Notes: a model not told the origin generated them from the sequence alone. A stretch of DNA of 64,000 nt from Solirubrobacteraceae bacterium (GCA_049287685.1 JBAQGH010000072.1:2821-66820), one strand, 5' to 3'. Shown: positions 23,202-61,519, numbered from the stretch's first letter. Program-made: numbers and translations.

Positions 23202-26200
23202 TCAAGCTCGGAGCGTAAGTCTCCGCGGGCCCTGGCGAAAGCCGAGCTCGACAAGAGCGGGCTCCAGATCCGAGCCGATCGCCGACTCCCCGTCTATTCG
23301 CTCGAGCGCCACCGTGTCTACGCGACCGGTGCGTACTGCGTCCGCCAGCGCGCGCAACGCTTGCGCGAGCGATGTCGACTCAGACGTGAGCGTCAGGATC
23401 CCACGTCCGCGGCGCTCCAGGTAGAGCACAGGCTCATGGGCGACGAACACAACATATGCGCCAGCCACCCGCGCTGGGCGGCCTGTCTGTGCGGCACGCC
23501 GTGGCCAGGACAGCACGGCGCCGTACGGCTGGGCTGGGTCGACGGCCGCGAGCACGAGTGTCGCGTCCTGTCCATCGCTTGCTCGCGCGCGCAGACGCTC
23601 CACTGCTCCTGGCAGGGCAAACTGCGCGCCGCCTAGACCCTCGACGAAATAGCCACGCCGACACACCCCAAGTGTCTCCAGCTCTGTGAGCGCACCGTAC
23701 AGAGCTGAGAAGCCACCGGCGATGCCCTCGGCGGAGACCTGCTCGCGCGTCAGCACGCCATAGCGCTCGAGCAATAGTTCGGCAAGAGCGCGGCGGCGCG
23801 CGCGCAACTCTTCGATTGCGGCCGGGCGAGCACCCTGCTCACGCGCGGCTTCCTCGCCGAAGAGCGCAAGCGTGAGCGACCAGCGACCCTGAACCTGGGC
23901 GCTCGTGCCAAAGCGGCCCGCGCGCAGCGAGGGCCCGCCAAAGCGCCTTCCCGTGCGCAGCCCACCTCCCCGCGCACGAGCCGGCCCCGCAAGCGCGTGT
24001 GCGGCAAGCGTCTGGCGTGGGGCGCGCAAGGGTGCCCAGGCGTCGTTGGTCACCTCGCCGGCCCAGACGAGGTCCCACAGCGCCTGTGTGAGCACGACGC
24101 CAGACAACTCCAACTCGGCAAGCAGGTCGGTGAAGAAGCAGGGTCCGGCCGCCAGGCGCTCGCGTAGCAGTGCGTGCTCGGGCTGCTCAGGCGGCTCCCC
24201 GCGCGCGCCGACAAATGAGCTGGGTCGGCCTAGCAACGCGGCGTCCTCGCGGAAATACAGCGCCACACGCCCCGAGTCGCGGCCGAGCGAGCCCGCACCG
24301 ACCCAGACGACCTCGCCACCGGCGCACAGGCTGTCCAGCCAAGAGGGCGAATAGGAGCCGGTACGAGAGGCGAGCACGTCGCGCTCCCAGGAGGCCACGG
24401 GCAGCGCCAAGCCCTGCAGGGGGACGAGCACTTCGCGCAGGCGCTCCACCCCGCCTGCCCCCCGCCTGTGCCCTTCAGGGTGCGATGGGGGGCCGCCTCG
24501 CTCCGAACCTGGCCGCCAACGATCGACGCCCTGCCACGAGGGCATGAACGCACTCAGCGCACGCTCGTCGACAGGCTCGATCTCCTTGCGCAGCGTCGCC
24601 AGCGAAGCGCGCCGCAGGCGGCGCAGCACCTGGATGTCGCACCACTCGCGCCCGGCGCCGCCGGGGCGCAGCTCTCCTCGCACCAGCTCGCCCGAGCTCT
24701 CCAGCTCACGCAATGCGGAGGAGACGTCCACGCGGTAGCGATCGAGGAACTCCACGCTTGAGAAGGGGCCGTGCGTACGCGCATAGCGCCCCACCAGCTT
24801 GACCAAAGCGTCGGGCACATCTCCCAGAAACACATCGGGCAGGCCACCGGGCGGCGGACAGCCAAGCGCATCGCGATAGAGACCGGCATCGTCGGCGGCG
24901 ATCAGCCGCTCATCTCCGGCGATGCGTATGCGCACCACGCGCCGTTCGTGCTCCAGCGCAGCCAGCATCTCCTGCATATCCAGGCCGACGAGCACGCGCT
25001 CGCTCAGCTCCGCGACGCCCAGGTCGCCGACTGCGCGCAGCACATCTCCGAGCGCGTCGCGGCTCGTGGCCTGCGTGCGCTGTGAGCGGTGCTGGAGATC
25101 TTCCTCGATCTGCTCGAGCGCGGCGGGATCGATCAGCTCGCGCAACTCCTCCTGGCCGAGCAGCTCGCGCAACAGATCGCGGTCGAGCGACAGCGCGGCC
25201 GCCCGGCGCTCGGCGCTCGGCGTGTCCCCCTCGTACATATAGGTGGCCACGTAGTCGAACAGCAGCGAGCCCGCGAACGGAGAAGCGTGCTGTGTCTCCA
25301 CCTCGACCAGCGAGACCTCGCGCGTTGCCAGGCCGCGCAGCAGCTCCTGCAAGCCGGCCAGATCGAGCACGTCGCGCAGGCACTCGCGATAGGTCTCGAG
25401 CACGATCGGAAAGTCGGGGTAGCGACGGGCGACTTGCAGCAGGCCCTGAGCCTTCAGCCGCTGCTGCCACAGCGGCGTGCGCCTACCCGGGTATGCGCGG
25501 GGGATCAAGAGCGCACGACCGGCGTTCTCGCGAAAACGTGCCCCGAACAGTGCCGAGTCACCGAGCTCGGCGACGATCGCCTCCTCCACCTCCTGCGGAT
25601 CGAGCGCCACCAAATCGGCATAAGAGGCGGCGCCGGTGGCGCCGGATGACTCGACACCGCGCGAAGCAAAAGCATCTGCGACTGGCGCGATGGGGGGCTC
25701 GCCGGCACCTGGCACATCGGAAGGGCCATCGCCACCCGGCGTCCACTGCTCCTCGGCCTCGTCCAGATCCATGTCGGGAAGACGCACGACGATCCCGTCG
25801 TCAGACCAGATCGCCTCGCCGTCGACGCCAAAACGCTCGCGCATGCGCGCCGAGATCGCAAGGCCCCAAGCCGCATGGACGCGACCGCCGTAGGGCGAGA
25901 GCACGCACAGACGCCAGTCGCCGATCTCGTCGCGAAAGCGCTCGAGCACGATCGTGCGGTCGCTCGGCAGCACCTGCGTAGCCGCCTGCTGCTCGCGTAG
26001 GTACTCGAGCAGGTTGGCGGCTGAGCGCTCGTCGAGGTCGTAGTCGCGTACGAGCAGATCCGCGTCCTGGTCGACCGCCCAGCGCGTGAACTCGCCGATC
26101 GCCTTGCCCAGCTCCTTGGGCCGGCCGATGCCGTCGCCCTTCCAAAACGGCACAGCGCCCGGCACACCGGGAGCGGGCGTCACGATCACGCGGTCGCGGC

Positions 26201-28289: not shown

Positions 28290-28416
28290 CCCTAAAGAAC
28301 GGACAAGATCGTTTCTCGGGATCGTTCTATTAGACTGCCGCTCCGTGGCCGACGACGAAACGCAACAGTCACCCACTGGGCGCCCGTTTCCCAGACGCCT
28401 GAGACCCCGCGCGTGG

Positions 28417-28785
28417 ATGCGATGGCTCACCGGCACAGCGGATCGCGAAGCGGTGCAGGACGCACAAGACAAAGACGACCACCTCAGCCTGCGCGAGACC
28501 CTGCGCGCGCTACCGACGCTGCTCGACAACACAGGCCTGCCCAACGGTGTCGTGGAGCTGTTGATCGAGGACTTCGAAGCGCCGAGGAGCCAGCTCCTCG
28601 ACATCCACGACGGCCATGTCAAGCTCGCCGAGCCCGGCCAGTGCGTCCCCTGGGCCAGCATCGCCGGCCCACTCACCGCCTGGGCGACGGCGCTCGGGCC
28701 GCAGCGCGACACCACGCAGCTGCGGCTCACCGGCGACGAGTCGCTGGCGCGCAGCGTGCTGGCGGCGCTCCCGCGACCCGACTAA
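28417..28785 (+). CDS. small SCP2/sterol-carrier-like family protein (tentative)
   Basis: In-frame ATG at 28417 within ORF 27838..28785. The C-terminus ...HVKLAEPG...LRLTGDESLARSVLAALP resembles actinobacterial sterol-carrier-family proteins. It is divergent from lhr. Confidence 0.45.
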   Translation: MRWLTGTADREAVQDAQDKDDHLSLRETLRALPTLLDNTGLPNGVVELLIEDFEAPRSQLLDIHDGHVKLAEPGQCVPWASIAGPLTAWATALGPQRDTTQLRLTGDESLARSVLAALPRPD

Positions 28786-32308: not shown

Positions 32309-33126
32309 AGCGACCCCCGCCGTGCCAGTCGCGCCGCAAGCGCCATCGCGAGGCTGGTACCCACCATCAGCAGCGTCGCGATCGCGGTGATAACAGGTTC
32401 GAGGCCGTAGCGCACAGAGTCGAGGATCGACTTGGGCAGCGTTTCGAGCCCGGGCCCGCCGAGGAAGTTGACCAGCACCGCCTCGTCGAGGCTTGTCACG
32501 AACGCGAGCACACCCCCGGCCAGTATCGCGGGCGCGAGCAAGCGCAACGTGATCGCAAACCAAGCTTGCACCCGGCTGGCGCCCGCGACCATCGCGGCCA
32601 GCTCGAGCTCAGGCGGGATGCGGCTCATGGCGGCGCTGGTGACGAGCAGCATTACCGGCACCGCAAGCGTCAGGTTGGCAAGCACCAAGCCCCAGTAGGT
32701 GCCGAGCAGACCGACCTGAGCGTACAACCCGTACATGGCGACCGCATACGCGGATATCGGGAGGATTATCCCGGCGATCCCGCCGGCCTGCAGGGCGTGG
32801 CGCAACGGAAGGCGACTACGGTGGATCGTGAACAGCGTGGGCACCACCACGAGCGCGGCAAGCAGCGCCACCGGCGTGGCGATCTTCACCGACAGCCACA
32901 GCGCCGAGCCCCAGCGCGGGTCTTCGAGCAGCCTGCGGTATTGACCCAGCCCCCACGCGTGCGGAGGAAAATCAAAGAAGCGGTCGTTGGAGAAGGACAG
33001 CACCACAACCAGCGCCGCCGGCACGAGCAGAGCGAAAGCCGTAGCCGAGACCACGACCGCGCTCGCAGCGCCAGTGAAACGGTCGCCGACCAGTGCGCGT
33101 CTCACGCCGCCATCCTCGCGTCTCAC
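32305..33126 (-). CDS. ABC transporter permease (PotC-like)
   Basis: Multi-pass membrane protein with an EAA-like loop (SRIPPELELAAMVAGASRVQAW). Its ATG overlaps the upstream stop (ATGA). Confidence 0.85.
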   Translation of the reverse strand: MRREDGGVRRALVGDRFTGAASAVVVSATAFALLVPAALVVVLSFSNDRFFDFPPHAWGLGQYRRLLEDPRWGSALWLSVKIATPVALLAALVVVPTLFTIHRSRLPLRHALQAGGIAGIILPISAYAVAMYGLYAQVGLLGTYWGLVLANLTLAVPVMLLVTSAAMSRIPPELELAAMVAGASRVQAWFAITLRLLAPAILAGGVLAFVTSLDEAVLVNFLGGPGLETLPKSILDSVRYGLEPVITAIATLLMVGTSLAMALAARLARRGSL

Positions 33127-34037
33127 GCCGCCGCCCTCTGAAGGCGCCCACGCCCGACAAGCGCAAGCGCAAGGCCGAGCGTGAGCAGGGCGACGGCCAG
33201 CAGAATCACCGACGCGGCGCTTGCGATCGGATAGTCGTAGAAGGTGAAGATGTAGTCCTGGATGTAGGAGGCCATGAACGGGGCCTGTGCTCCTCCGAGC
33301 AGGACCGGTGTGACGTAGAAGCCGAGCGATATCGCGAATACGAGCGCACCGCTGGCGACGATCCCGGGCATCGCCAGCGGCAGCATCACAGAGCTGATCG
33401 CGCGCGCGCGCGAAGCTCCCAGGCCACGGGCGGCGTCGAGCAGGGAGCGGTCGATCGTGAGAAACACTCCATACAGGGAGAAGGCCGCATAGGGAACCAT
33501 CGTGTAGACCATCCCCAACGCCACAGCAGTCGAGGTGTAGAGCCAGGAGACCGGTGCCAAGCCAAGCAATTCGAGCCCCTTGTCGAGCGGCCCTTCAGAG
33601 GAGAGCAGGATCACGATCGAGTAGTTCTTCACGACCGTCCCCATCCAGAAGGGAGCCAGCACCGCGAGCCACAGGACGGTCTTTACGAGGGTGCTCTTGC
33701 TGACCTTGATGTGCCAGGCCAGCAGACCGCCAAGCCCCACCGCGACCGCGCTCACGAGCACGCTCGACAGCAGTGTGGTGATCAGCGCGCGCCTGCCCGC
33801 GGGACTTTCCAAGACCGCGGCGTAGTTGCCCAGTCCTTCGCCGGTGGTGAGCGAGTCGATCGTCAGCTTGGCGAGCGGATAGACGACGAAGCCGAGCAAC
33901 ATCGCGAGCAGCGGCAACACCAACAACAGTGCCCAACGGTTGGGCAGGACCGCGCTCCAAGCAGGCGGCCGATGCTCGCTATCCACGCGAGGCAAGACGG
34001 GAAGGCTCGCCATGACGCTCCTTCCCGCCTGCCCCAT
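33123..34037 (-). CDS. ABC transporter permease (PotB-like)
   Basis: Multi-pass membrane protein with an EAA-like loop (IDRSLLDAARGLGASRARA). Confidence 0.85.
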   Translation of the reverse strand: MGQAGRSVMASLPVLPRVDSEHRPPAWSAVLPNRWALLLVLPLLAMLLGFVVYPLAKLTIDSLTTGEGLGNYAAVLESPAGRRALITTLLSSVLVSAVAVGLGGLLAWHIKVSKSTLVKTVLWLAVLAPFWMGTVVKNYSIVILLSSEGPLDKGLELLGLAPVSWLYTSTAVALGMVYTMVPYAAFSLYGVFLTIDRSLLDAARGLGASRARAISSVMLPLAMPGIVASGALVFAISLGFYVTPVLLGGAQAPFMASYIQDYIFTFYDYPIASAASVILLAVALLTLGLALALVGRGRLQRAAA

Positions 34038-34057: not shown

Positions 34058-35140
34058 CTAGCCGCGCAGGAAGTTCTCATAAGCGGTGTTCAGTTCGTCG
34101 CTGTGATTGGCGTACCACAGGAAGTTGGGCGTCGCCAACTGCTTGAGGTTCACCGGGTTGTCAGCCAGCTGCGAGCCGATCGAGCTCGGCAGGTAGGTGA
34201 GCGCGAGCGGATTTGGGACCGAGTCGTGCACGATTTCGGCCCACGTCGCCTCCGACTTCGGATGGCTGGCGATGAATTCGAGCAGCTTGGAAGCGTCCGC
34301 CGAGTTGGGGGCGCCTTTCAGCACGGCCCAATAGCTGGGCTCATAGGCGCCACCCAACCACACGACCTTCAATTTCACGCCTTGGGAGATAAGCTGGTAG
34401 GCGCGATCGCTCCACATGATCCCAAGCGGCACTTGGCCGCTGCGCATGATCTGCTGCTGCTGTTCGCCCGACTGCCAGAACACCCTGATGTGAGGCTTGA
34501 GACCTTCGAGCGTCTTGATCACTGCTTTGACGTTCACAGGAGTCGTGGCCGTCTGGGTGATCGGCATGCCCGCCGCGACCTCGGCCGTCGTGACCGCCTC
34601 GATCGGCTCGATCCCCCCGAACATGCGCTGCTGGGGGAATTCCTTGGTGTTGTAGAACTGTGCCATGTTGGACGGGCAGGTCTTCATCTTGTCGGTATTG
34701 CAAACGATCACGTCGCCGAGGCTCCCGTGGGAGAAGCCGAACGGCGTGACCTTCTGAGCGCCGAGTTCTTTTTCGAAGCGCGCCTTGGTGGCGGCCGGCA
34801 ATGGAGCCAGCTGTCCCTTTGCGTAGAGCGTGTATGCCGAGCCTCCGTCGAGCGAATCGACCACGTCCCACTGGATCTGTTTCGCCTGGTTTTGTGCTTC
34901 CACGCGCGCGAGCTGGACGCCGGGAGCATCCACGAATTGAGAAGTCAGGTGGTTTTCCGCGTCGAACTGATTTGTGTAGGCCTTCTGCGTGGCTTCGTCG
35001 ATCGGCGCGCCCCAATCGCCGATCGTCAGCGTGGTCGAGCTTTTACCGCTGCTACCGCATGCGGCGATCCCCAAGCAAATCGAGAGCACCGCAAGCGCCC
35101 CAAGCACCCGGCGGCTCCTACCCCAACTCATTGGCTGCAT
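34058..35140 (-). CDS. ABC transporter substrate-binding lipoprotein (PotD/PotF-like, polyamine-type)
   Basis: Lipobox LSICLGIAAC; 360 aa; positioned with PotABC-like partners. Confidence 0.8.
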   Translation of the reverse strand: MQPMSWGRSRRVLGALAVLSICLGIAACGSSGKSSTTLTIGDWGAPIDEATQKAYTNQFDAENHLTSQFVDAPGVQLARVEAQNQAKQIQWDVVDSLDGGSAYTLYAKGQLAPLPAATKARFEKELGAQKVTPFGFSHGSLGDVIVCNTDKMKTCPSNMAQFYNTKEFPQQRMFGGIEPIEAVTTAEVAAGMPITQTATTPVNVKAVIKTLEGLKPHIRVFWQSGEQQQQIMRSGQVPLGIMWSDRAYQLISQGVKLKVVWLGGAYEPSYWAVLKGAPNSADASKLLEFIASHPKSEATWAEIVHDSVPNPLALTYLPSSIGSQLADNPVNLKQLATPNFLWYANHSDELNTAYENFLRG

Positions 35141-40304: not shown

Positions 40305-40454
40305 AAAGCCGGGAGACTTCCCGCCACTAGGCCGCGCCGGAAGCTGGAGACAGCATCCGGCGCCGGCTTTCGCGGGTCTTAGGGCTCACGACTCTTGAGC
40401 CCTAAAGTCGAGCGCAGACAGCACAGCGTCCGCCGCTCGCATACGCTACCGGCG

Positions 40455-40898
40455 ATGCTCATACCCCTTAGAAGGCGTCTCAGACCACTCCTTGCCGGGA
40501 TCTGCGCGCTTGTGTTCGCCGTCGGCGTTAGCGCCTGCGCCGAAACGGCGTCCACTGGCAAATTCAGCGGCGAAAGCCACAACGTCGCCCAGACGGTCTC
40601 CAATTTTCAGACCGACGCCACCGCGGAGGACGAGAAGAAGCTCTGCGACGACGACCTCGCCGCGACGCTGACCGTCAAGCTAGGCCACGTCGGCGGGTGC
40701 CAGACGGTGTTGAAGTCCCAGCTGCACGAAATCGACGCGCTGGGCTTGACGATCGAATCGATCTCCGTCAGCGGCACGCACGCGCTGGCCCACGTGAAGA
40801 GCACCTATTCGGGCAAGAGCCGAACCTCCACGTTTGCCCTCGTCAAGGAAGGCACTCACTGGAAGATCTCCGGTTTGGGCAGCGCTTTGCACTCCTGA
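40455..40898 (+). CDS. small lipoprotein, hypothetical (NTF2-like C-terminus possible)
   Basis: MLIPLRRRLRPLLAGICALVFAVGVSAC lipobox. The ATG at 40455 was chosen. Confidence 0.6.
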   Translation: MLIPLRRRLRPLLAGICALVFAVGVSACAETASTGKFSGESHNVAQTVSNFQTDATAEDEKKLCDDDLAATLTVKLGHVGGCQTVLKSQLHEIDALGLTIESISVSGTHALAHVKSTYSGKSRTSTFALVKEGTHWKISGLGSALHS

Positions 40899-46971: not shown

Positions 46972-47961
46972 TCAGGCAGCTTCGCGCGCAGGCTCAGCGG
47001 CGGGCTCTCCCAGCTCCCGTGCGCTGAACCAAGCACCCGATCCGATCGCACGGTCGAAGTTCGACCAGCGCGTTCCCGGCGAGAGCTCCTTCTCGATGCG
47101 GTCGAAGCTGCCGAGACGCCCGCCGAGGTTGTCGATCATGTGCACAAGCGTCGCCTCACGCGTGCATGGCGTTACGGGACTGCCGTGCTCGAGCGAGCCA
47201 TGGTGGGAGAGGATGATGTGCAGCACCGCCCATGCAAGCTCTCGAGGGAAGCCCTCGATGTCCTCGATCGTGCGGCGGATGCGGTAATAGCCGAGCGGTA
47301 TCTCGCCGTGTAGCCGACCCAGATCCGTGAGGTCGATGCTTTGCGCATCGTCGGTGTAGGCGTCGAGCTTGCCGATGTCGTGCAGCAGCGCACCCGTCAC
47401 CGCGACGTCGCGGTCGATACCGGGGAAGGTTGCGGAGATGGCGCTGACGCCCTGGGCCACCCCGAGGCAGTGCTCGAGCAGCCCGTGACGGTAAGCCTGG
47501 TGGTAGTACTTCGCTGCCGGCGCCCCTTGGAAGCGAGCCCATAGCGGTGAGTCCTCGCCGAATACCCTCTCGAGCAGAGTGCTGAGGTGCGGGTTGCGCA
47601 CGGTCCCAAGCAGCTCGCGCAGGTCGGCCTCCATCTGCTCTGGGGAGCGTGCCGGCCCATCGAGCAGGTCGTCGAGCGCGAAGCTTCCCGGCTCGGCGGC
47701 GGTAAGCGTGCGGAGGTTTATCTGCGGGCCGAAACGCGGGTGCACGGTGTAGCGGCCGGTCACATGCACAGGCGCGCCCTGCGTCGCCAGGCGCTCCATC
47801 TCGACGAGCTCCTCCCAAACCATTGAGACCACAGCACCTGTGCGGTCGCCCAATTGCAAGCGCAGGTACTCGCCGCCATCCCGGCGCGAGCGGCGCTCGA
47901 TCGCACGCACCAGCAGAACCTGGTCGATCTCCACACCGTCTGTGAGCTCGTTGACGAGCAT
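46972..47961 (-). CDS. OB-fold + HD-domain phosphohydrolase (YhaM/Cbf1-like), paralog 2
   Basis: LRLQLGDRTGAVVSMVWE...VHVTGRYTVHPRFGPQI (OB), then LLHDIGK...ILSHHG (HD). The ATG at 47961 (MLVNELTDG) was chosen. Confidence 0.7.
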   Translation of the reverse strand: MLVNELTDGVEIDQVLLVRAIERRSRRDGGEYLRLQLGDRTGAVVSMVWEELVEMERLATQGAPVHVTGRYTVHPRFGPQINLRTLTAAEPGSFALDDLLDGPARSPEQMEADLRELLGTVRNPHLSTLLERVFGEDSPLWARFQGAPAAKYYHQAYRHGLLEHCLGVAQGVSAISATFPGIDRDVAVTGALLHDIGKLDAYTDDAQSIDLTDLGRLHGEIPLGYYRIRRTIEDIEGFPRELAWAVLHIILSHHGSLEHGSPVTPCTREATLVHMIDNLGGRLGSFDRIEKELSPGTRWSNFDRAIGSGAWFSARELGEPAAEPAREAA

Positions 47962-48142
47962 GTATTGGACGGTAGTGAGCAGTGCGGACGGTACGCAGCT
48001 GGGAGACCGGGGAGGTTCCGGTGAAGGCGAAATGTTGTGCACGGAAACAGGGGGTGTAACGAGACACCAAGAAATGGTGCACCGCACAGCGTGACGAACA
48101 CCGTGACTTACACCGCGCGCGGTGCGACACAAACAGGGTCGC

Positions 48143-49459
48143 CTACGGCTCCAGCCGGTTGGGGCCGCGGTACAGGAACGTGACCTCACGCACGTTGTCC
48201 TGCCCGAGCATCTGCATCAACAGGCGCGTCAAGCCGAAGCCGAAGCCGCCGTGTGGGGGGGCGCCATAGCGGAAGAAGTCGAGGTAGTACTGGATCGGCT
48301 CGACCTCGACCTGCTTCTCGTGCGCTTGAGCCAGAAGCTGCTCATAGCGGTGCTCGCGCTGTGCTCCGGTCGTAAGCTCGATGCCACGCCAAAGCAAGTC
48401 GAAGCTCTTGGTTAGCGTCGGCCGATCTTCATGGCGCATGTGGTAGAAAGGCCTCACCGATGTCGGGTAGTCGGTAACGAACACGAACTCGCTACCGGAC
48501 TGCTCGGCAATGATCGCCGACAGCGCCCGCTCGCTTGGCGGATCGAGGTCGTGGTCGGGGCCAGGCACATCGTGGCCGTGCTCTGCCAGCAGGGCCTTCG
48601 CGTCGGCGAGCGTGATACGCGGGAACGGGATTGGCGGCCCACCCACCCCGCCTACCTCGACACCGAACGTGCTCGTGATCTGCTCGCCATGCTCGCGGGC
48701 CACGACGGAGAGCATGTGCGCGAGCCAACGCTCCTCGAAGGCCATCACGTCCTCGTGCGAGTCGATCCAGGCTATCTCGACGTCGACACTCGTGAACTCG
48801 GTGTCGTGGCGCGAGGTGAACGACGGGTTGGCGCGGAACACCGGCCCGATCTCGAATACCTTGCCGAAGCCCCCGGCCATCGCCATCTGCTTGTAGAACT
48901 GCGGAGACTGGGCCAGGTAGGCGGTGCGCTCGAAGTAATCGACCTTGAACAACTCGGCTCCAGACTCGCTGGCCGAGCCCATCAGCTTGGGCGTGTGGAT
49001 CTCTATGAATTTTTGTTCGTGCCAGTACTCGCGCATCGCGTGCTCCACGGTCGACTGCACCTCGAAGATCAGGCGCCTGTCGGGACGGCGTAGATCGAGG
49101 TAGCGCCAGTCGATGCGCTTGTCCAAGGCCGAGTCGGGCGTGACGGGAAGTTCGGGCTCGGCGGGCGCATCGACGGTCAGAGACGCAAGCTGGATCTCAA
49201 GGCCACCGAGCTTCACCCGCTCGTCGGCCACCACGAGGCCGGTGACCGTGACCGCCGACTCCGGCGTGAGCGCGGAGATCGCCTCGTTGAGCTCGCTTGG
49301 CTGCTCCTCCTTGCCAAGGATCAGCTGAGCAAGGCCTGTTTCGTCGCGCAGCACCACGAACTGCATGCGCTTCTGGTCGCGGATGGCGTGCACCCACCCG
49401 CGGAGCTCGACGGTCTCCTGCACGTGTGATTTGAGATCGGCTATTGAGGTGCGCGCCAC
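48143..49459 (-). CDS. aspS: aspartate--tRNA ligase, archaeal/eukaryote-like type 2 (about 438 aa)
   Basis: OB anticodon-binding domain (VELRGWVHAIRDQKRMQFVVLRD), class II motifs (FRANPSFTSRH, GFGFGLTRL), and a C-terminal ...YRGPNRLEP. The GTG start at 49459 lies just below the upstream gene's stop (49473). Confidence 0.85.
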   Translation of the reverse strand: MARTSIADLKSHVQETVELRGWVHAIRDQKRMQFVVLRDETGLAQLILGKEEQPSELNEAISALTPESAVTVTGLVVADERVKLGGLEIQLASLTVDAPAEPELPVTPDSALDKRIDWRYLDLRRPDRRLIFEVQSTVEHAMREYWHEQKFIEIHTPKLMGSASESGAELFKVDYFERTAYLAQSPQFYKQMAMAGGFGKVFEIGPVFRANPSFTSRHDTEFTSVDVEIAWIDSHEDVMAFEERWLAHMLSVVAREHGEQITSTFGVEVGGVGGPPIPFPRITLADAKALLAEHGHDVPGPDHDLDPPSERALSAIIAEQSGSEFVFVTDYPTSVRPFYHMRHEDRPTLTKSFDLLWRGIELTTGAQREHRYEQLLAQAHEKQVEVEPIQYYLDFFRYGAPPHGGFGFGLTRLLMQMLGQDNVREVTFLYRGPNRLEP

Positions 49460-49472
49460 GGGGACGGCAATG

Positions 49473-49853
49473 CTATTGCAGCGCTGGACCCGCCGGCTGG
49501 TCGGCCCGTCGATCTTCCACCAGCACCTCGCGCGAATCGCGCTCAGAGCAGTGGGTGGGACAGTAAACCCCGCGCACGCCGCCATCGCTCAGCCCGTATG
49601 CCAACCAAACGCCGTGGCGCCAGGTGAAGTTGAAGAACCCTTCGACGGCGCCGTTGCGGCCCATCTCACGATGCCATGCCTTGACGACGACACTCGCGGG
49701 GATTCGCGCACGACAGTCGCGGTCGTAGTGCGGATGGCCACTCCATACGCACTTCATCGGCTCTGCCGAGGTCTCAGAGGACTGAACCTCGACTAGACGC
49801 GGCTGGTCTGACAGTTTGCGAGGCGGCTCGCTGGGTTGTGACTGTTGCGTCAT
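49473..49853 (-). CDS. hypothetical Cys/His-rich small protein
   Basis: GC3-rich ORF with KCVWSGHPHYDRDC...VYCPTHC. I recognise no family. Confidence 0.5.
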   Translation of the reverse strand: MTQQSQPSEPPRKLSDQPRLVEVQSSETSAEPMKCVWSGHPHYDRDCRARIPASVVVKAWHREMGRNGAVEGFFNFTWRHGVWLAYGLSDGGVRGVYCPTHCSERDSREVLVEDRRADQPAGPALQ

Positions 49854-53665: not shown

Positions 53666-53711
53666 ATGCGCCCGGCGGGAATCGAACCCGCGGCCTGCGG
53701 TTTTAAAGACC
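53666..53711 (-). repeat. distal att repeat: a displaced 3' fragment of the tRNA (anticodon stem/loop to discriminator)
   Basis: It is identical to 57062-57107 except at 53704 (T versus G at 57100). In tRNA sense it is followed by TTCTTTTTTTGTTG, the likely original tRNA 3' flank/terminator. Confidence 0.85.
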
Positions 53712-53872
53712 TGCCGAACTGTCCTTGATTGGCTTGGTTGAGCCAGATTCGGTCCGATTATGTGTCCCGAAACAGCCTTATATTTGCCTACTTGGGGACA
53801 TATTTCGGGACACGGTTTCCGAGTCGAGCCGCGATCTTTGATCCCTGCTGGCAGAAGCGCTACTTTGTGAGC

Positions 53873-54118
53873 ATGACAGCAAAGGAGAAGCTGAGGCAAA
53901 CAGTCGAAGAGCTTTCCGAGGCCGAAGCGCAGGATGCGCTTGGCTTCATCGTTCGTCGGCAAAGCAAGCGCGATGCTCTTGACGAACTACTAGAGCGCGC
54001 CCCACTCGACGATGAGCCGACGGCACCCGACGAGGACGAGGGCGTGCGGGAAGCCAAAGAGCAGATCGCCCGCGGCGAAGTGCTCTCAGCAGACGAGATC
54101 AGGCAAGAGATCGCTTGA
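53873..54118 (+). CDS. type II antitoxin (partner of the RelE/ParE toxin)
   Basis: 81-aa acidic protein (MTAKEKLRQTVEELSEAEAQDALGFI...). Its stop overlaps the toxin start (TTGA). Confidence 0.65.
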   Translation: MTAKEKLRQTVEELSEAEAQDALGFIVRRQSKRDALDELLERAPLDDEPTAPDEDEGVREAKEQIARGEVLSADEIRQEIA

Positions 54119-54375
54119 GCGACGGCGGTTGGGTCTTCTCGGCGCGCGCCGGACGTGACTTCAAGCGCCTCGACCCTCCCGTCCAGCGTCGCATCATTAG
54201 TGCTCTTGACCGACTGACGAGCGATCCACCGGCTGGAGATGTCGTCAAGCTGACGAACACCGACGAATGGCGTCTTCGCGTTGGTGACTGGCGCGTACGC
54301 TTCGAGCGCGATGCCGAGACGGGGATCGTCCACGTCGTGCGTGTGTTGCCTCGCGGCCGTGCCTATCGGGATTGA
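54115..54375 (+). CDS. RelE/ParE-family type II toxin
   Basis: FSARAGRDFKRLDPPVQRRIISALDRLTSDP...WRLRVGDWRVRFERDAETGIVHVVRVLPRGRAYR; 86 aa with a TTG start. Confidence 0.8.
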   Translation: MSDGGWVFSARAGRDFKRLDPPVQRRIISALDRLTSDPPAGDVVKLTNTDEWRLRVGDWRVRFERDAETGIVHVVRVLPRGRAYRD

Positions 54376-54650
54376 CACGACAATCGGACCCAAAACAGGG
54401 TCTCGAGTCGCTTTCGACTGCTCATCTCGTCGTGAGATGGTCGGCTGAAAGCCGACCTAATCGCCGAACAGCGGAGTGTGGTGGGGATGTCAAGAGAGCC
54501 CCGTCAGGGGTGGCCCCGCAGGGGCCAGGCCGAAGGCCCGACCTTGACATCCCCACCACACGGAGCTACAGCCACGCCTCGGGGCGCCACGAACGTTTGC
54601 GCGTAGCTCCAGGGCGCTCCGCACAGCGGAGCTCTTTGGACAGACGCGCT
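54376..54650. other. hairpin-dense non-coding segment (candidate structured ncRNA or cis-acting element of the island)
   Basis: At least eight stem-loops, including a perfect 19-bp stem (54476-54494 / 54543-54561) that encloses three small GC hairpins. See findings. Confidence 0.5.
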
Positions 54651-54911
54651 TTACTGGTCGGCGAGCCAGTTCTCGAGCATGGTCTGTGTAAAGCGGATGT
54701 GGCGTCCCACACGCAGGCACGGCAAGCGTCCCGTGCGCACCGCGTCATAGATCCAACTCGGCTTGACGGCAAGCAGCTCCGCCGCTTGCTCGGGACGCAG
54801 CAGTGGTCCGTCCAGCCGCCTGGGCCCCACGGACCGACCCTCGACGAGCGATCTCGCCGGTGGCCCCTGGCCGGGTGACGCGACAACCTCAGTGTCCCTA
54901 TATGTCCGCAT
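54651..54911 (-). CDS. xis: excisionase-family (MerR/AlpA-like) helix-turn-helix DNA-binding protein
   Basis: LLRPEQAAELLAVKPSWIYDAVRTGRLPCLRVGRHIRFTQTMLENWL. Confidence 0.8.
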   Translation of the reverse strand: MRTYRDTEVVASPGQGPPARSLVEGRSVGPRRLDGPLLRPEQAAELLAVKPSWIYDAVRTGRLPCLRVGRHIRFTQTMLENWLADQ

Positions 54912-55340
54912 AACGCGACCTCCGTACCGCTAGGAAACCGTATACATGCTTAATCCGTCGAACCACGATCAACGGGACACAAGAACAACGCAGGAGACGA
55001 AACACATCGTCGCTCGCGCTTAGCGCCACACATTTCCGCAGCGCGCTCGCAACGCTTCCACGTAACGCGAAAACAAACCACGCCTACAGCGGGACGGAAA
55101 GCCCCCGCGCGTCGGGTCGTCAGGCCACGGGTCCGCGAGGACTCCGTGGCCCGATCGACCCGATCCGTCCCACAACAGCAGACACACCACCAAACACCAA
55201 CAACAACGCACCAGCCATCAACAATCAACAATCACACTTCACACCATCTCTCAACTATCAATATCTCCCACCGATCCAACAACACAACACACCAAACCAT
55301 CCACATGCCATGCCAGCCACCCCACCACCACCTTTCTTCA

Positions 55341-55388
55341 GGTGCTTGACCACCCGCACTCGAAGTTGGGGGCGGGTGGTCAAGCACC
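55341..55388. other. perfect 17-bp stem-loop
   Basis: GGTGCTTGACCACCCGC (55341-57), a 14-nt loop, then GCGGGTGGTCAAGCACC (55372-88). There is no U-tract on either strand. Confidence 0.6.
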
Positions 55389-55584
55389 GACCCCACCCAA
55401 CCCACTTCTGGGTGGCTGGCCTAAAACCGCACAGCCGAGCCACATCCACAGCGCGGTACCGGACCACAACCTGTACCCACCTGTCGCGCTCCGCGACAAC
55501 ATTGCGACACCTGCACGACACCTCAGGATGCAGTTACCCCCACTCCACGGGTGCAGTCACCCATAGGACAGACGAGAAATCCAT

Positions 55585-56841
55585 CTATGCGATATCGACA
55601 GCAGCTGCATCGACGCCATCCACCCGGAATGCTTCTGCCACGAGCCGCGCATCCTCCTCGCGGGGCGCATAGTGCAGGTAGCGCATCGTGGTCTGGATAT
55701 CGGCGTGACCCATCCACTCCTGCACGCGGCGGATGTCGGCCGTGGCGATCATGCGCGTACCGAACGTGTGGCGCAGATCATGGAAGCGAAGCCGGCGCAG
55801 GCCGGCGCGCTTCAGAGCCCGCTTGTAGCGACGACGCAGCGCGGAGTCATCCAGGTAGTCACCGACGGTCCCAGCGAAGACGAGATCATCCTCGCCCGCG
55901 AAAAGCTCGCGCTGGGCCAGCTTCGCCAAGGCCTGCGCAACTTCGGGAGCAAGCGGGACCGAGCGGACCTTGCCGGATTTGGGGGTCGTGAGCGCCCCGA
56001 CGGACCAGCTTGAGCGCACGCGCACGAGCGAGCCGGCGAAATCGATGTCGCGCCAGCGCAAGGCAATCAGCTCTCCGAGGCGCAAGCCGGTGAAGGCGGC
56101 GGTCAGAAACAGTGCGGCGTCCTGCTCTGACTCAGCAGCCCTGACCAAGGCCCAGACCTCCTCGGGCGAGAAGACTTCGATGTCACCGGACAGGCGTGTG
56201 GGATAGCGCTCGACCGCCGCGACCGGGTTGGAGGGCAGCTTCCAGACCCTGCAGGCCCGCGCGAAGACGCCGTGCAGCAAGACCATGATGTGGTTCTTGG
56301 AGTTGTTGCTGAGCGGACGCGGCAGCCGCGAGACGGCCTCTGGACATGCCTCTGAGTCGCCGTGGGTGACCTGTCCCGTCTGTGGGCCATCAACCGCGGA
56401 CAGCCTGGCGCGCCACTGCTCGATGTCTTCGCTTGTTATCTGCTCCAAGGGTCGCTCACCAAAGGCGGGCAGCAGGTGGGCTTGCACGATCGAGCGGTAG
56501 CCACGCAACGTCGAGGGCTTCAGCTGGCGGTCCTGCTCGGCGTAGCGCAAGAACTCGGCGACTGCGTCGGCGAAGGTCGCACCGGTGGCGACCATCCCAA
56601 CCAAGGTCCCGCGCCGCGCCTGATGGAGCACATCATGCAACCAGTCTTCGGCAAGCCGCTTGGTGAAGTATCCGGCCGGTGGGCGCCCGCGCTCGCTCCA
56701 CGCGGGGCCGAGCTTGCGCTGTACCTGGCGACCATCGGGGAGCCGGTACTTGGCATACCAGACCGCCCCACGCTTGCGCTCGACCCGATGGACATGGCCG
56801 CTCGGCGGCTGCGTCCGAAGACGGGGCGCCTCTCGATCCAT
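55585..56841 (-). CDS. int: tyrosine-type site-specific integrase
   Basis: C-terminal catalytic region ...LRFHDLRHTFGTRMIATADIRRVQEWMGHADIQTTMRYLHY, and an N-terminal SAM-like domain. The ATG at 56841 (MDREAP) was chosen; the ORF is open to 56991. Confidence 0.9.
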   Translation of the reverse strand: MDREAPRLRTQPPSGHVHRVERKRGAVWYAKYRLPDGRQVQRKLGPAWSERGRPPAGYFTKRLAEDWLHDVLHQARRGTLVGMVATGATFADAVAEFLRYAEQDRQLKPSTLRGYRSIVQAHLLPAFGERPLEQITSEDIEQWRARLSAVDGPQTGQVTHGDSEACPEAVSRLPRPLSNNSKNHIMVLLHGVFARACRVWKLPSNPVAAVERYPTRLSGDIEVFSPEEVWALVRAAESEQDAALFLTAAFTGLRLGELIALRWRDIDFAGSLVRVRSSWSVGALTTPKSGKVRSVPLAPEVAQALAKLAQRELFAGEDDLVFAGTVGDYLDDSALRRRYKRALKRAGLRRLRFHDLRHTFGTRMIATADIRRVQEWMGHADIQTTMRYLHYAPREEDARLVAEAFRVDGVDAAAVDIA

Positions 56842-57061
56842 CGAAGCACCCGTCGAGGCGCCACCGTGCGACAGCACCCCGGCCCCGGAATGCGAACCGC
56901 CCACACGCGATCGGGAACCCACTGAGTAGGCGCTTCGAGTGGTTTGGAGCATCCTTGCCACGCCCAGAGCGTAGCAACTTCTTCGGGACATATTCGGGAC
57001 ACGGTTACTTTTCTATAGTGCCGCGTGCCGATCCAAAATAGCTTGGATAGAGGTTTTGTGA

Positions 57062-57107
57062 GATGCGCCCGGCGGGAATCGAACCCGCGGCCTGCGGTTT
57101 GAAAGAC
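57062..57107 (-). repeat. proximal att repeat (within the intact tRNA gene)
   Basis: Direct repeat of 53666-53711. Confidence 0.85.
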
Positions 57108-57158
57108 CGCTGCTCTTTGGCTCCCCGAAGAGAACCGTTGACCACTGAGCTACGGGCG
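57063..57158 (-). tRNA. 96-nt tRNA whose anticodon folds as UUC (Glu by anticodon); it has a canonical 73-nt core plus a 23-nt hairpin insertion in the D-loop, and no encoded CCA
   Basis: The manual fold of the reverse complement is as follows. Acceptor GCGCCCG/CGGGCGC with A73, U8 and A9. D-stem GCUC/GAGC. Anticodon stem GCGGU/ACCGC with loop CUUUCAA. Variable loop AGGCC. T-arm GCGGG-UUCGAUU-CCCGC. The D-loop reads AGUGGUC + AACGGUUCUCUUCGGGGAGCCAA + A. Confidence 0.7.
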
Positions 57159-57243
57159 CGCGAAGCTGACGATGGTACTACTTGCGGGGCTCTCGATACG
57201 GCCCCGGCGATGGCCCTCCATGGAGGTCGCGGACGGCCGTCCT

Positions 57244-60838: not shown

Positions 60839-61519
60839 ATGAGGGGACGTATCGCGATGATGATCACGATGTTCGTGTTCGGGGTTGCTCCGTCCACGGC
60901 CCTGGGCACGCCACAGGACATCGCCTCGACGCATGCCTACATTCGCGCCAACTACGCGCTCAATCGCGCCACGCAGGCAAAGGTCAAAGTGGCACAGGCA
61001 AGCATCGAGGCGACAATCCACAAACTCGGCCAGGAATGCCCGAAGCTGGGCGTAGGCTCACCCCAGGACGAAGAATCCCAGCACCTAAGCTACGAGGTAG
61101 TGGTGGCGCTTTGGTCGGCTTCCTACGCGACCGACGCGGGCCCGATCCGCACATTCGCTCACACCGTGCGGCACTTGCACTGGAGCAATCCGAAGCTCAC
61201 CCATATGACACAGCGCTACGCGACCGACCTGCAGGATCTCGCCAGCTTGCAGATGCCTAATGTCTGCGGCGATGTGACCGCCTGGAAGGAAACCGGTTTC
61301 AAGACGGTCCCGGCGACATCGATCCAACTCGATCGGCGCGTGGAAGCGATCGAACTCAAAGCGATCCCGCCGTCGCTGTTGGCTGCATATGAGCAGCCGG
61401 CAGACAAGGCGATCTTGGCCACCACGACGCGCATCGAAAGCCATCTACAGCAGATAGAAACCATGGAGGGCTTCAACGATTGGGACCAGGCGCTTGAAAC
61501 GGTGGGACTCAATCAGTAG
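60839..61519 (+). CDS. secreted hypothetical protein
   Basis: Signal-like MRGRIAMMITMFVFGVAPSTALG. I recognise no domain. GC is somewhat lower than in neighbouring genes. Confidence 0.5.
   Translation: MRGRIAMMITMFVFGVAPSTALGTPQDIASTHAYIRANYALNRATQAKVKVAQASIEATIHKLGQECPKLGVGSPQDEESQHLSYEVVVALWSASYATDAGPIRTFAHTVRHLHWSNPKLTHMTQRYATDLQDLASLQMPNVCGDVTAWKETGFKTVPATSIQLDRRVEAIELKAIPPSLLAAYEQPADKAILATTTRIESHLQQIETMEGFNDWDQALETVGLNQ

What the first reader, a model, noticed from the sequence alone, without database searches (positions are those of the whole stretch)
57063..57158. tRNA with an intact canonical core but a 23-nt C(UUCG)G-capped hairpin inserted in the D-loop
On the minus strand the sequence folds as a textbook cloverleaf. 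It has a 7-bp acceptor stem, U8/A9, a 4-bp D-stem, G18G19, a 5-bp anticodon stem, a 5-nt variable loop, a UUCGAUU T-loop and A73. Between D-loop nucleotide 20a and A21 there are 23 extra nucleotides (plus strand 57115-57137). These form a 7-bp stem, GGUUCUC/GGGAGCC, closed by a cUUCGg tetraloop. Removing them leaves exactly 73 nt. Known bacterial tRNA insertions are large group I introns in the anticodon loop. I know of no bacterial tRNA class with a small, stable helix inside the D-loop. The optimal tetraloop suggests selection at the RNA level rather than decay. It could be a new type of expansion or intron, a protein or integrase recognition handle, or a tRNA-like regulatory RNA. The body (4-bp GCUC/GAGC D-stem, A73) also does not look like the usual bacterial tRNA-Glu architecture despite the UUC anticodon.
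Basis: partly seen in the sequence, partly recalled or inferred. Interest (0 to 1): 0.8.

Follow-up and report, generated by a model that had tools for sequence, protein, structure and literature searches.

The report
Bacterial tRNA with extra D-loop hairpin
A soil-bacterium transfer RNA that reads the glutamate codon GAA carries a conserved extra mini-helix in its D-loop; a whole bacterial order and many phage tRNAs share this feature, I found no published description of it, and it may point to a new way tRNAs are shielded or tuned.

Summary
It has a canonical core plus an 18-nt C(UUCG)G-capped hairpin, flanked by CAAC and AAA, in the D-loop after G18G19U20.

It is not a pseudogene. The gene is identical in six genomes whose flanks and neighbouring proteins have diverged. 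It occurs in at least 55 species-level Solirubrobacterales genomes. The hairpin shows compensatory base changes, and each subgroup keeps a -10-like box upstream.

It is not an archaeal-type intron (no bulge-helix-bulge) or an integrase handle (the att core is the 3' 45 nt; the hairpin lies outside). GAA is read as Glu (two independent tests), so a codon reassignment is rejected.

The same scaffold occurs with other anticodons in IS1595-linked cassettes. D-loop mini-hairpins are frequent in phage tRNA arrays, especially Lys(UUU).

Best reading: a working Glu-inserting GAA decoder that keeps a structural expansion. The helix probably alters access to the elbow/D-loop face (nuclease evasion) and/or tunes GAA decoding. 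GAA is specifically enriched in exported-protein genes.

Not testable here: whether a canonical tRNA-Glu(UUC) co-exists, how the RNA matures, and which amino acid it carries.

The parts
57064..57159 (-). 96-nt tRNA(UUC) gene with a canonical 7/5 cloverleaf plus a D-loop hairpin
   Evidence: Rfam RF00005 68.3 bits over model positions 1-71. Identical in L001-L005.
57137..57146 (-). 5' part of the D-loop, A14 G15 U16 G18 G19 U20 + CAAC hinge (AGUGGUCAAC). Invariant across the family.
   Evidence: Invariant columns 14-23 in alignment A3.
57119..57136 (-). Inserted hairpin GGUUCUC-UUCG-GGGAGCC (7-bp stem 57130-57136 / 57119-57125; loop 57126-57129)
   Evidence: Pair 26:39 occurs as UG/CG/GC/GU and pair 27:38 as AU/UA/UG. 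The MFE alternative is not supported. dG -10.2 kcal/mol, z -3.15.
57116..57118 (-). AAA: two-nucleotide 3' hinge plus A21. Invariant.
   Evidence: Invariant columns 42-44 in A3.
57101..57103 (-). Anticodon UUC within the invariant loop CUUUCAA (57099-57105)
   Evidence: The loop is invariant in all 12 UUC variants.
57169..57181 (-). Conserved upstream block GTAGTA(C/G)CATCGT containing a -10-like TACCAT (57172-57177), 12 nt before the tRNA 5' end
   Evidence: Conserved while the surrounding flank diverges. Other subgroups have their own TANNNT boxes. Function is inferred, not shown.
57063..57108 (-). attL: 3' 45 nt of the tRNA (from anticodon-stem position ~29) plus 1 nt, repeated at the far end of the island
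53666..53711 (-). attR: displaced copy of the tRNA 3' part with 1 mismatch (loop CUUUAAA). It is a remnant, not a gene.
   Evidence: The sister element in L002 has a perfect copy.
53712..57062 (.). 3.4-kb integrated element: tyrosine integrase 55585-56991(-), HTH_17 excisionase-like 54651-54911(-), ParE toxin 54115-54375(+) with an upstream antitoxin-like ORF 53729-54118(+)
   Evidence: Pfam/NCBIfam. L103 shows the empty site, with the tRNA followed directly by GNAT.

Best explanation
This is a genuine, vertically inherited tRNA of Solirubrobacterales (Actinomycetota, Thermoleophilia). It looks transcribed, reads GAA and delivers glutamate. It keeps an extra ~7-bp helix in the mature molecule. 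The helix is inserted in the variable beta region of the D-loop (after G18 G19 U20) and joined by fixed hinges (CAAC on the 5' side, AA on the 3' side).

This region faces solvent at the outer corner of the L-shape, so the helix can project outwards without disturbing the G18/G19-T-loop elbow. That would explain why the canonical core is intact.

Selection acts on the presence, length and hinges of the helix, not on its sequence. So it works as a steric or structural appendage rather than a sequence-specific site.

Its most likely role is to change which proteins can dock on the D-loop/elbow face. The leading idea is protection from tRNA-targeting nucleases, because the same device is frequent in phage tRNA arrays, above all in tRNA-Lys(UUU), the classic nuclease target. 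A second possible effect is on how GAA is decoded. The scaffold looks like a generic Arg/Lys/Thr-type body, not a Glu body.

Separately, the gene's 3' half serves as the attachment site for integrative elements, one of which (3.4 kb) is inserted here.

Shown: the structure, its conservation, covariation, distribution, the att architecture, and GAA = Glu. Inferred: transcription, retention of the helix, charging with Glu by (probably non-discriminating) GluRS, and the shielding or tuning role.
For: - It scores as a real tRNA: 68.3 bits, full length.
- All 96 nt, insert included, are identical in 6 genomes. Their neighbouring DUF4389 orthologues are only 75-88% identical to the window's, and their flanks have diverged.
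- The family is present in 55 GTDB species-representative genomes, nearly all labelled Solirubrobacterales/Solirubrobacteraceae (two labelled more broadly: Thermoleophilia, Actinomycetes).
- The genomic context differs between subgroups and no co-travelling gene exists, so the tRNA is conserved in its own right.
- Covariation: 99.1% of cells are paired, against 38-53% in slid registers. The hairpin has 2 pairs with double-sided changes and 4 pair types at 26:39. The acceptor, anticodon and T stems also covary. The alternative fold is unsupported.
- All 12 insert variants fold in the same register, z -2.3 to -4.6.
- Every subgroup has a -10-like box upstream.
- GAA makes up 15% of Glu codons, so a UUC decoder is needed.
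- GAA = Glu. Its exchange profile over 760 orthologous gene pairs matches that of GAG. Near-invariant Glu sites 504 and 617 of AlaRS are GAA.
- D-loop mini-hairpins at the same position occur in 50 unique viral tRNAs. Of these, 21 are Lys(UUU), inside arrays of up to 38 tRNAs, and sometimes the hairpin gene is the only Lys(UUU) in the stretch of array held.
- The AriB tRNase is reported to contact the D-loop (PMC12409363).
Against: - The body lacks the bacterial Glu identity set. It has a 4-bp GCUC/GAGC D-stem, no U13-G22..A46, nucleotide 47 present, and A73. So charging by GluRS is an assumption.
- I could not test whether the same genomes also hold a canonical tRNA-Glu(UUC). If they do, this gene may be accessory.
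- The same scaffold carries CCU, UGC, UUU, GCG and ACC anticodons on mobile cassettes with an unchanged acceptor stem. This hints that identity might be set by the scaffold rather than the anticodon.
- Nobody has shown that a ribosome, EF-Tu, RNase P or the CCA enzyme tolerates a 7-bp helix at this position.
- There are no RNA-level data, so excision of the insert cannot be excluded.
- The nuclease-shield idea rests on association only.
Confidence: 0.55

Rival explanations
1. Accessory, MGE-derived back-up tRNA. The genomes also have a canonical tRNA-Glu(UUC) that does the routine decoding. The hairpin tRNA is a domesticated copy of a mobile or phage-type tRNA, kept as a nuclease-resistant spare or for a special subset of GAA codons.
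For: - Near-identical scaffolds occur on IS1595-linked cassettes and viral contigs with other anticodons.
- Some phage arrays carry hairpin and normal Lys(UUU) genes side by side.
- The body is unlike tRNA-Glu.
- GAA shows gene-class-specific use.
Against: - An accessory gene would not be expected to stay 100% identical across species whose proteins are ~75% identical, or to be present in every sampled species representative with an invariant anticodon loop.
- No canonical tRNA-Glu was seen, but only ~8-13 kb per genome could be inspected.
Confidence: 0.25
2. Scaffold-defined identity. The hairpin scaffold is charged with one fixed amino acid whatever the anticodon (for example Lys, by LysRS or a paralogue). 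The UUC copy then causes low-level or conditional mis-incorporation at GAA, as with the ProRSx/tRNAProX or allo-tRNA systems.
For: - The acceptor stem, discriminator and D-arm stay constant across six different anticodons.
- The UGC copy lacks G3:U70, so it cannot be an Ala tRNA.
- A LysRS gene lies directly upstream in one Solirubrobacterales subgroup.
- A divergent LysRS-like gene lies 5 kb from the UGC copy in L129.
- An allo-tRNA-like gene lies next to the CCU copy.
Against: - GAA behaves as Glu in codon exchange and at invariant Glu sites.
- GAA never exchanged with AAG/AAA in the near-tRNA genes.
- Fixation of a mistranslating tRNA with an invariant anticodon across an order is unlikely.
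- The LysRS next to the tRNA looks like an ordinary full-length housekeeping enzyme, and that synteny holds in only 7 loci.
Confidence: 0.08
3. The insert is a small intervening sequence that is removed (cut and religated, or cut to leave a two-piece tRNA), so the mature tRNA is a normal ~73-nt molecule.
For: - Removing the insert leaves a perfect 71-73-nt tRNA.
- Archaeal tRNAs fetched by the same pattern carry D-loop introns at similar positions.
- Insert length varies from 16 to 32 nt while the flanks stay fixed.
Against: - There is no bulge-helix-bulge. The stem is a continuous 6-9 bp with no 3-nt bulges 4 bp apart.
- It is a bacterial genome (bacterial AlaRS), and no bacterial tRNA splicing endonuclease pathway is known.
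- It is far too small for group I or II introns, and a 7-bp stem is too short for RNase III.
- Stable UUCG/UACG/GNRA caps suit a retained structural element.
Confidence: 0.07
4. A non-translational tRNA-like RNA (regulator, primer, enzyme cofactor or mere attachment site), or a pseudogene or assembly artefact.
For: - ARAGORN cannot type it.
- It is used as an integration site.
Against: - All tRNA tertiary-interaction nucleotides and a 7-nt anticodon loop with U33 and A37 are kept, and the stems covary as in working tRNAs.
- It was assembled independently in more than 55 genomes, including long-read complete chromosomes, so it is not an artefact.
- The D-loop part is not needed for integration.
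Confidence: 0.05

Closest known systems
Archaeal (and nucleomorph/red-algal) tRNA introns at non-canonical positions, including the D-loop, removed by the bulge-helix-bulge splicing endonuclease
   Same: A short (about 12-40 nt) helical insertion inside the D-loop of an otherwise canonical tRNA. My own genome scan retrieved such archaeal genes with the same search pattern.
   Different: The host is a bacterium. The insert is a plain hairpin with no BHB motif. The hinges are conserved and the stem covaries as a stable structural element. No splicing machinery is known.
Natural extra or extended helices tolerated in bacterial translation: the long variable arm of class II tRNAs (Leu/Ser/Tyr) and the 6-bp D-stem of tRNASec
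   Same: An additional or extended helix emerging from the tRNA core that stays in the mature tRNA and serves as a recognition element (reviewed in PMC7609411).
   Different: The location. The helix here emerges from the D-loop beta region next to the elbow, not from the variable region, and it is separate from the 4-bp D-stem.
allo-tRNAs (8/4 or 9/3 acceptor/T-stem tRNAs with many anticodons in soil bacteria; Mukai et al. 2017, PMC5389517)
   Same: Non-canonical tRNA architecture found in soil metagenomes, with one scaffold carrying many anticodons and partly linked to mobile DNA. An allo-tRNA/tRNASec-like gene lies 1.7 kb from a CCU hairpin tRNA.
   Different: The acceptor/T geometry here is the canonical 7/5, and the oddity is a D-loop helix. 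The window's member is a fixed chromosomal gene with one invariant anticodon across an order.
Phage-encoded tRNAs that escape tRNA-targeting defence nucleases (e.g. T5 tRNA-Lys(UUU) against PARIS AriB; PMC11464382, PMC12409363)
   Same: Structural variants of tRNAs, above all Lys(UUU), carried in phage tRNA arrays. AriB is reported to contact the D-loop as well as the anticodon stem.
   Different: The documented escape mutations are base substitutions in the anticodon stem. No hairpin insertion has been described, and no nuclease has been linked to the tRNAs found here.
bldA tRNA-Leu(UAA) and the TTA codon in Streptomyces (from general knowledge)
   Same: In a high-GC actinobacterium, an A-ending codon read by a single special tRNA is used preferentially in one class of genes.
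   Different: GAA is not rare (15% of Glu codons). No regulation of the tRNA has been shown. The link between the hairpin tRNA and GAA enrichment in exported-protein genes is only a correlation.

Membership tests
tRNA (Rfam RF00005) | Cloverleaf with 7-bp acceptor, D-arm, 5-bp anticodon stem with 7-nt loop, and 5-bp T-stem with 7-nt loop, scoring above the gathering threshold | tested here: met
   68.3 bits against a gathering score of 29, model positions 1-71. All stems 96-100% paired across 12 variants.
tRNA (Rfam RF00005) | Conserved tertiary-interaction nucleotides (U8, A14, G18 G19, U33, T-loop UUCRAnY, purine 15 / pyrimidine 48) | tested here: met
   Read from the sequence. These columns are invariant in A3.
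tRNA (Rfam RF00005) | Is transcribed, processed, aminoacylated and used on the ribosome | not testable with these tools
   Only indirect support: conserved -10-like boxes and purifying selection.
Bacterial tRNA-Glu | Anticodon YUC with A37 | tested here: met
   Loop CUUUCAA, invariant.
Bacterial tRNA-Glu | Augmented D-helix (3-bp D-stem with U13-G22..A46, nucleotide 47 missing), as defined for E. coli GluRS (established knowledge) | tested here: not met
   The D-stem is a 4-bp GCUC/GAGC and the V-loop is the 5-nt AGGCC. Body similarity to Glu-type tRNAs ranks 14th of 21.
Bacterial tRNA-Glu | The codon it reads is translated as Glu | tested here: met
   The GAA exchange profile equals that of GAG. 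Near-invariant Glu sites of AlaRS are GAA. This is indirect: it shows what GAA means, not which tRNA delivers it.
Archaeal-type BHB tRNA intron | Two 3-nt bulges separated by a 4-bp helix at the exon-intron junctions | tested here: not met
   A continuous 6-9-bp stem in all 12 variants; the junctions are single-stranded CAAC and AA(A).
Archaeal-type BHB tRNA intron | The host encodes a splicing endonuclease (EndA) and ligase | not tested
   Only 64 kb of the genome was available. The context is bacterial.
Bacterial group I tRNA intron | A >200-nt ribozyme inserted in the anticodon loop | tested here: not met
   The insert is 23-25 nt and in the D-loop. There is no Rfam intron hit in the window.
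allo-tRNA | 8/4 or 9/3 acceptor/T-stem configuration with a long V-arm | tested here: not met
   7/5 configuration and a 5-nt V-loop.
tRNA pseudogene | Relaxed constraint: mismatches in stems, patchy distribution, faster divergence than the flanks | tested here: not met
   The gene is identical while the flanks diverge. It has compensatory changes only and is present in 55 species representatives.
tRNA gene used as attB by a tyrosine-integrase element | Direct repeat of the tRNA 3' part bounding an island that encodes an integrase next to the tRNA | tested here: met
   A 46-nt repeat with 1 mismatch, 3.4 kb apart. Integrase 72 nt downstream. Empty site in L103 and a sister element in L002.

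The most novel reading that the evidence does not exclude
D-loop hairpin tRNAs form a previously unrecognised structural class of translationally active bacterial and phage tRNAs. The extra helix would act as a shield or tag at the elbow/D-loop face that blocks tRNA-targeting nucleases (or redirects partner proteins). Solirubrobacterales would have fixed one such tRNA as their only GAA decoder. That would make GAA a kinetically distinct codon, which selection exploits in exported-protein genes.
Probability: 0.2. Interest if true: 0.88.

Novelty: new variant of a known kind. Interest (0 to 1): 0.72.

Why it matters
Bacterial elongator tRNAs are thought to keep a nearly invariant architecture, because dozens of partners read the same shape: RNase P, the CCA enzyme, modification enzymes, aaRS, EF-Tu and three ribosomal sites. 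The accepted exceptions are few: tRNASec, tRNAPyl and allo-tRNAs.

A fifth helix in the D-loop that is conserved and covarying across an order, and recurs in phage tRNA arrays and mobile cassettes, would add a new structural class. It would raise three testable questions:
1. How do the ribosome and processing enzymes accommodate it?
2. Is it a counter-measure in the tRNA-nuclease arms race between phages and hosts?
3. Does it make GAA a specially decoded codon?

It also has practical consequences. ARAGORN mis-types these genes, so tRNA inventories and codon-capacity estimates for these abundant soil bacteria and for viromes may be wrong. A naturally tolerated insertion site for a hairpin would also be useful for engineering tagged or orthogonal tRNAs.

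Tried and rejected
1. **Codon reassignment of GAA.** A small sample suggested that GAA does not interchange with GAG. I rejected this with 760 orthologous gene pairs and 148 distant AlaRS homologues.
2. **The single-sequence MFE fold,** which pairs G18/G19 into an extended D-arm. Covariation does not support it.
3. **Integrase handle.** The hairpin lies outside the att repeat.
4. **The 'UUA anticodon' in the attR remnant as a clue to a suppressor ancestor.** It is a private point mutation; the sister element has a perfect copy.
5. **DUF4389, AlaRS or ND-AspRS as functional partners.** The synteny is limited to the closest relatives, and the aaRS is AspRS, not LysRS.
6. **'Specifically Lys-like body'.** The body is equally close to Arg- and Thr-type tRNAs, and the comparison set is biased.
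7. **Exact-protein lookup of the window's AlaRS** found nothing.
8. **A probe for GluRS in all held loci,** to reach a canonical tRNA-Glu through gltX synteny, found nothing.
9. **The E. coli-type promoter scan** found nothing. This was expected for Actinomycetota, so I used conserved TANNNT boxes instead.
10. **GenBank phage records** contain nothing like the window tRNA over its full length.
11. **Literature searches** for D-loop insertions or hairpins in bacterial or phage tRNAs found no description.

Full report
**The observation**

The minus strand of window 57064-57159 encodes a 96-nt RNA that Rfam's tRNA model matches end to end at 68.3 bits (gathering 29). The only anomaly is a 25-nt insertion in the D-loop. 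Read directly, it has:
- a 7-bp acceptor stem (GCGCCCG/CGGGCGC), U8 A9 and a 4-bp D-stem (GCUC/GAGC);
- a D-loop of A14 G15 U16 G18 G19 U20, followed by CAAC, the hairpin GGUUCUC-UUCG-GGGAGCC, and AA before A21;
- an anticodon arm GCGGU-CUUUCAA-ACCGC (anticodon UUC), V-loop AGGCC, T-arm GCGGG-UUCGAUU-CCCGC and A73.

ARAGORN finds the gene but calls it 'tRNA-???', because it mistakes the inserted hairpin for an anticodon arm. It does the same, or calls 'tRNA-Pro(ggg)', for relatives.

**Organism and context**

The window is bacterial, 65% GC, with a bacterial AlaRS. Homologues of the upstream DUF4389 gene are labelled Solirubrobacteraceae. A tyrosine integrase starts 72 nt downstream of the tRNA.

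The last 45 nt of the tRNA (from anticodon-stem position ~29) plus one base are repeated 3.4 kb away, at 53666-53711. These repeats bound a small island encoding the integrase, an HTH_17 excisionase-like protein and a ParE toxin pair. L103 shows the empty site, and L002 carries a sister element.

The hairpin lies outside the repeat, so it belongs to the chromosomal tRNA gene and is not an integrase handle. The single mismatch in the displaced copy (CUUUAAA) is a private mutation of a dead remnant.

**It is selected, not decaying**

Five syntenic loci from relatives carry exactly the same 96 nt. Their DUF4389 orthologues are 75-88% identical to the window's and their intergenic flanks have diverged. 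Two of these loci (L003, L005) have no tyrosine integrase beside the tRNA.

I scanned one genome per GTDB species with a general pattern: any anticodon, and at least 13 extra D-loop bases. Nearly all are labelled Solirubrobacterales or Solirubrobacteraceae; two carry broader labels (Thermoleophilia, Actinomycetes). There are 12 distinct UUC sequences.

Across them the hinges UGGUCAAC and AAA and the loop CUUUCAA are invariant, while the hairpin changes:
- GGUUCUC/GGGAGCC
- GGGACUC/GGGUUCC
- GGCAACC/GGGUGCC
- GGGUCCU/GGGGCCC
- GGUUCCU/GGGGGCC and others

The loops are UUCG, UACG or UUUG.

Pair counting gives 99.1% paired cells, against 38-53% in slid registers. Pair 26:39 has four pair types and pair 27:38 has three. 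There are also compensatory changes in the acceptor, anticodon and T stems.

The thermodynamic MFE of the single sequence proposes a different D-arm pairing. It has mismatches in 4-5 of 12 sequences and no double-sided changes. Each insert variant folds alone into the hairpin in the same register (z -2.3 to -4.6).

The tRNA sits in different gene neighbourhoods in different subgroups, and no gene travels with it. Each subgroup keeps its own -10-like TANNNT box upstream.

Downstream regions are variable and rich in mobile-element genes, which marks the gene as an integration hotspot.

**What the tRNA decodes**

GAA makes up 15% of Glu codons in the window's genes, so a UUC decoder is needed. 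The body is unlike bacterial tRNA-Glu, so I tested whether GAA is reassigned.

A first small sample looked odd. Two better tests then settled it:
- Over 760 orthologous gene pairs, GAA's main partner is GAG (24.5%). Its non-synonymous partners (GAC 6.7%, CAG 3.3%, GCG 2.9%, GAT 2.4%) mirror those of GAG.
- Against 148 AlaRS homologues of 39-62% identity, Glu is the commonest residue at the 15 GAA sites. Two nearly invariant Glu positions (504 and 617) are GAA.

So GAA means Glu, and the tRNA that reads it must carry Glu. Whether this tRNA is the only reader could not be tested. The genome-wide scans were exhausted, and only 8-13 kb per genome could be inspected.

**A codon-usage oddity that may be connected**

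GAA is retained between orthologues about twice as often (45%) as other rare synonymous codons (AAA 23%, CAA 20%, GAT 21.5%).

In the window, seven genes have 62% GAA, against 12% in the remaining 39 genes. Other A-ending codons do not shift. Six of the seven plainly encode lipoproteins, secreted proteins or a permease; the seventh (84-866) has an unclear start. Next-base context does not explain the pattern.

An a-priori classification of 390 ORFs from the other Solirubrobacterales loci reproduces it. GAA is 43-49% of Glu codons in predicted exported proteins and 16% in cytoplasmic ones. AAA is also raised, but CAA, GCA, ACA, GTA and GAT are not. The link to the tRNA is only a correlation. 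I have not shown that the pattern is specific to this order.

**The wider class**

With position 36 restricted to non-C, the metagenome scan and a viral-contig scan found the same scaffold (same acceptor stem, D-arm hinges, T-arm and A73) with other anticodons:

| Anticodon | Loci |
|---|---|
| CCU | L126/L128/L130/L131 |
| UGC | L129 |
| UUU | L132 |
| GCG | L133 |
| ACC | L033 (from the genome scan) |
| UUC with longer hairpins | L127; L241, L143 and L222 came from the general viral scan |

These copies sit in 43-66% GC backgrounds. Three of them (ACC, UGC, GCG) lie next to homologues of an IS1595-type Zn-ribbon ORF. L033 and L129 share 86% identity over the tRNA plus flanks even though their anticodons differ. 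The CCU copy has an allo-tRNA/tRNASec-like 91-nt gene 1.7 kb upstream. The UGC copy has a divergent LysRS-like gene 5 kb away.

Running the general D-loop-insert pattern on viral contigs gave 116 loci. After filtering out artefacts (a truncated 5' fragment followed by a full tRNA), 50 unique tRNAs remain. Of these, 21 are Lys(UUU) with 2-4-bp GNRA-capped mini-hairpins right after G18G19UU. They sit in arrays of up to 38 tRNAs per 13 kb.

In some arrays the hairpin gene is the only Lys(UUU) in the stretch held; in others normal copies lie beside it. tRNA-Val(CAC) with 37-41-nt inserts on high-GC viral contigs, Gly(CCC), Arg(UCU) and others also occur.

Several non-actinobacterial chromosomal tRNAs with D-loop inserts score 50-60 bits with Rfam (L084, L080, L125, L059). 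Archaeal hits from the same scan are the expected D-loop introns.

**Mechanism**

The insert enters at the beta variable region of the D-loop (positions 20a/20b). From established tRNA structures, these nucleotides point into solvent at the outer corner of the L. A helix hinged there can project away while G18/G19 still dock on the T-loop, which fits the intact core.

Selection preserves the helix, its approximate length and its hinges, but not its sequence. That argues for a steric or structural role rather than a sequence-specific binding site.

It is not an archaeal-type intron (no bulge-helix-bulge). It is too small for a group I intron or for RNase III. I therefore infer that it is retained.

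The same device is concentrated in phage tRNA arrays, especially in tRNA-Lys(UUU), the classic target of anticodon nucleases. The AriB tRNase is reported to contact the D-loop as well as the anticodon stem (PMC12409363). So the best functional guess is protection from, or altered recognition by, tRNA-targeting enzymes. A possible side effect is on decoding kinetics of GAA. This last step is inference.

**Novelty**

Reviews of non-canonical tRNAs (PMC7609411), the allo-tRNA paper (PMC5389517), the aptamer-tagged tRNA paper (PMC7590224), the phage-tRNA/defence papers and several keyword searches contain no description of hairpin insertions in bacterial or phage tRNA D-loops. The library is incomplete, so prior description elsewhere cannot be excluded.

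I rate it a new structural variant of a known kind (tRNA). It is of clear interest to tRNA and phage-defence specialists. The main open points are co-existence with a canonical tRNA-Glu(UUC), maturation and charging.

Noticed in passing
window 53666-57108: A 3.4-kb integrative element is inserted into the tRNA's 3' half. It encodes a tyrosine integrase (55585-56991), an HTH_17 excisionase-like protein (54651-54911) and a ParE toxin (54115-54375) with an upstream antitoxin-like ORF (53729-54118). It is bounded by 46-nt att repeats. The empty site is seen in L103 and a sister element in L002.
   Followed up: yes
window genes 84-866, 4732-6039, 20212-20784, 33123-34037, 34058-35140, 40395-40898, 60839-61519; also ORFs of loci L006-L124: Exported-protein genes (lipoproteins, signal-peptide proteins, a permease) use GAA for 43-62% of Glu codons, against 12-16% in cytoplasmic genes. 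AAA is also raised, but other A-ending codons are not. Next-base context does not explain it. An a-priori test on independent loci reproduces it (odds ratio 4.1).
   Followed up: partly
orthologous genes across about 60 Solirubrobacterales loci: GAA is retained between orthologues about twice as often (45%) as other rare synonymous codons (AAA 23%, CAA 20%, GAT 21.5%). This suggests codon-level selection on GAA.
   Followed up: partly
window 57064-57159 and all family loci: ARAGORN mis-types the family as 'tRNA-???(ggag)', 'tRNA-Pro(ggg)' or 'tRNA-Val(gac)', or misses it entirely. Public tRNA annotations for these genomes and for viromes are therefore likely to be wrong.
   Followed up: yes
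L128:1723-1813 (+): A 91-nt tRNASec/allo-tRNA-like gene (Rfam tRNA-Sec 39.1 bits, below the gathering score of 47; anticodon loop CCUUCAU) lies 1.7 kb upstream of the CCU-anticodon hairpin tRNA, on a contig flagged as viral.
   Followed up: partly
L129:1361-1951, L033:6487-7071, L133:1148-1702 (weaker: L205, L125): An IS1595-type Zn-ribbon ORF accompanies the hairpin tRNAs with UGC, ACC and GCG anticodons. L033 and L129 share 86% identity over the tRNA plus flanks although their anticodons differ. This suggests a mobile cassette with a variable anticodon.
   Followed up: partly
L129:4462-4535 and L129:7748-9154: On a 33-56% GC contig, near the UGC hairpin tRNA, there is a 74-nt tRNA (Rfam 54 bits). 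ARAGORN calls it tRNA-Ser(GGA) although it lacks a long variable arm. There is also a divergent LysRS-like protein (400.8 bits, below NCBIfam's cutoff of 468).
   Followed up: no
viral loci L134-L244 (e.g. L166, L189, L152, L194, L183, L216): Phage tRNA arrays (up to 38 tRNAs per 13 kb) often contain tRNA-Lys(UUU) genes with a GNRA-capped mini-hairpin in the D-loop. They also contain other over-long class I tRNAs (Pro 96 nt, Thr 85-86, Gly 87, Gln 87, Arg 87).
   Followed up: partly
L138, L169, L191, L195, L199, L209, L236: tRNA-Val(CAC) genes on 66-70% GC viral contigs carry 37-41-nt inserts in the alpha region of the D-loop (before G18G19). The flanks are conserved (CAGCGC...GGCCGGAU) and the interior is variable.
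   Followed up: no
L084:1134-1229, L080:1109-1207, L125:3539-3625, L059:6188-6296: Chromosomal tRNAs from Acidobacteriaceae (anticodon ACU), an Enterobacterales MAG (ACG), Xanthobacteraceae (UGU) and a gammaproteobacterial MAG also have D-loop inserts. They score 50-60 bits with Rfam's tRNA model.
   Followed up: no
L066, L072, L086, L090 and 3 more loci: In one Solirubrobacterales subgroup a full-length LysRS gene lies directly upstream of the hairpin tRNA(UUC) on the same strand (111 nt away in L090).
   Followed up: partly
window 2821-3912, 46972-48189, 48143-49585, 23202-28730: The window holds two YhaM-like HD + OB-fold proteins, an archaeal-type non-discriminating AspRS (which implies the tRNA-dependent Asn pathway), and an unannotated 1842-aa ORF.
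   Followed up: no
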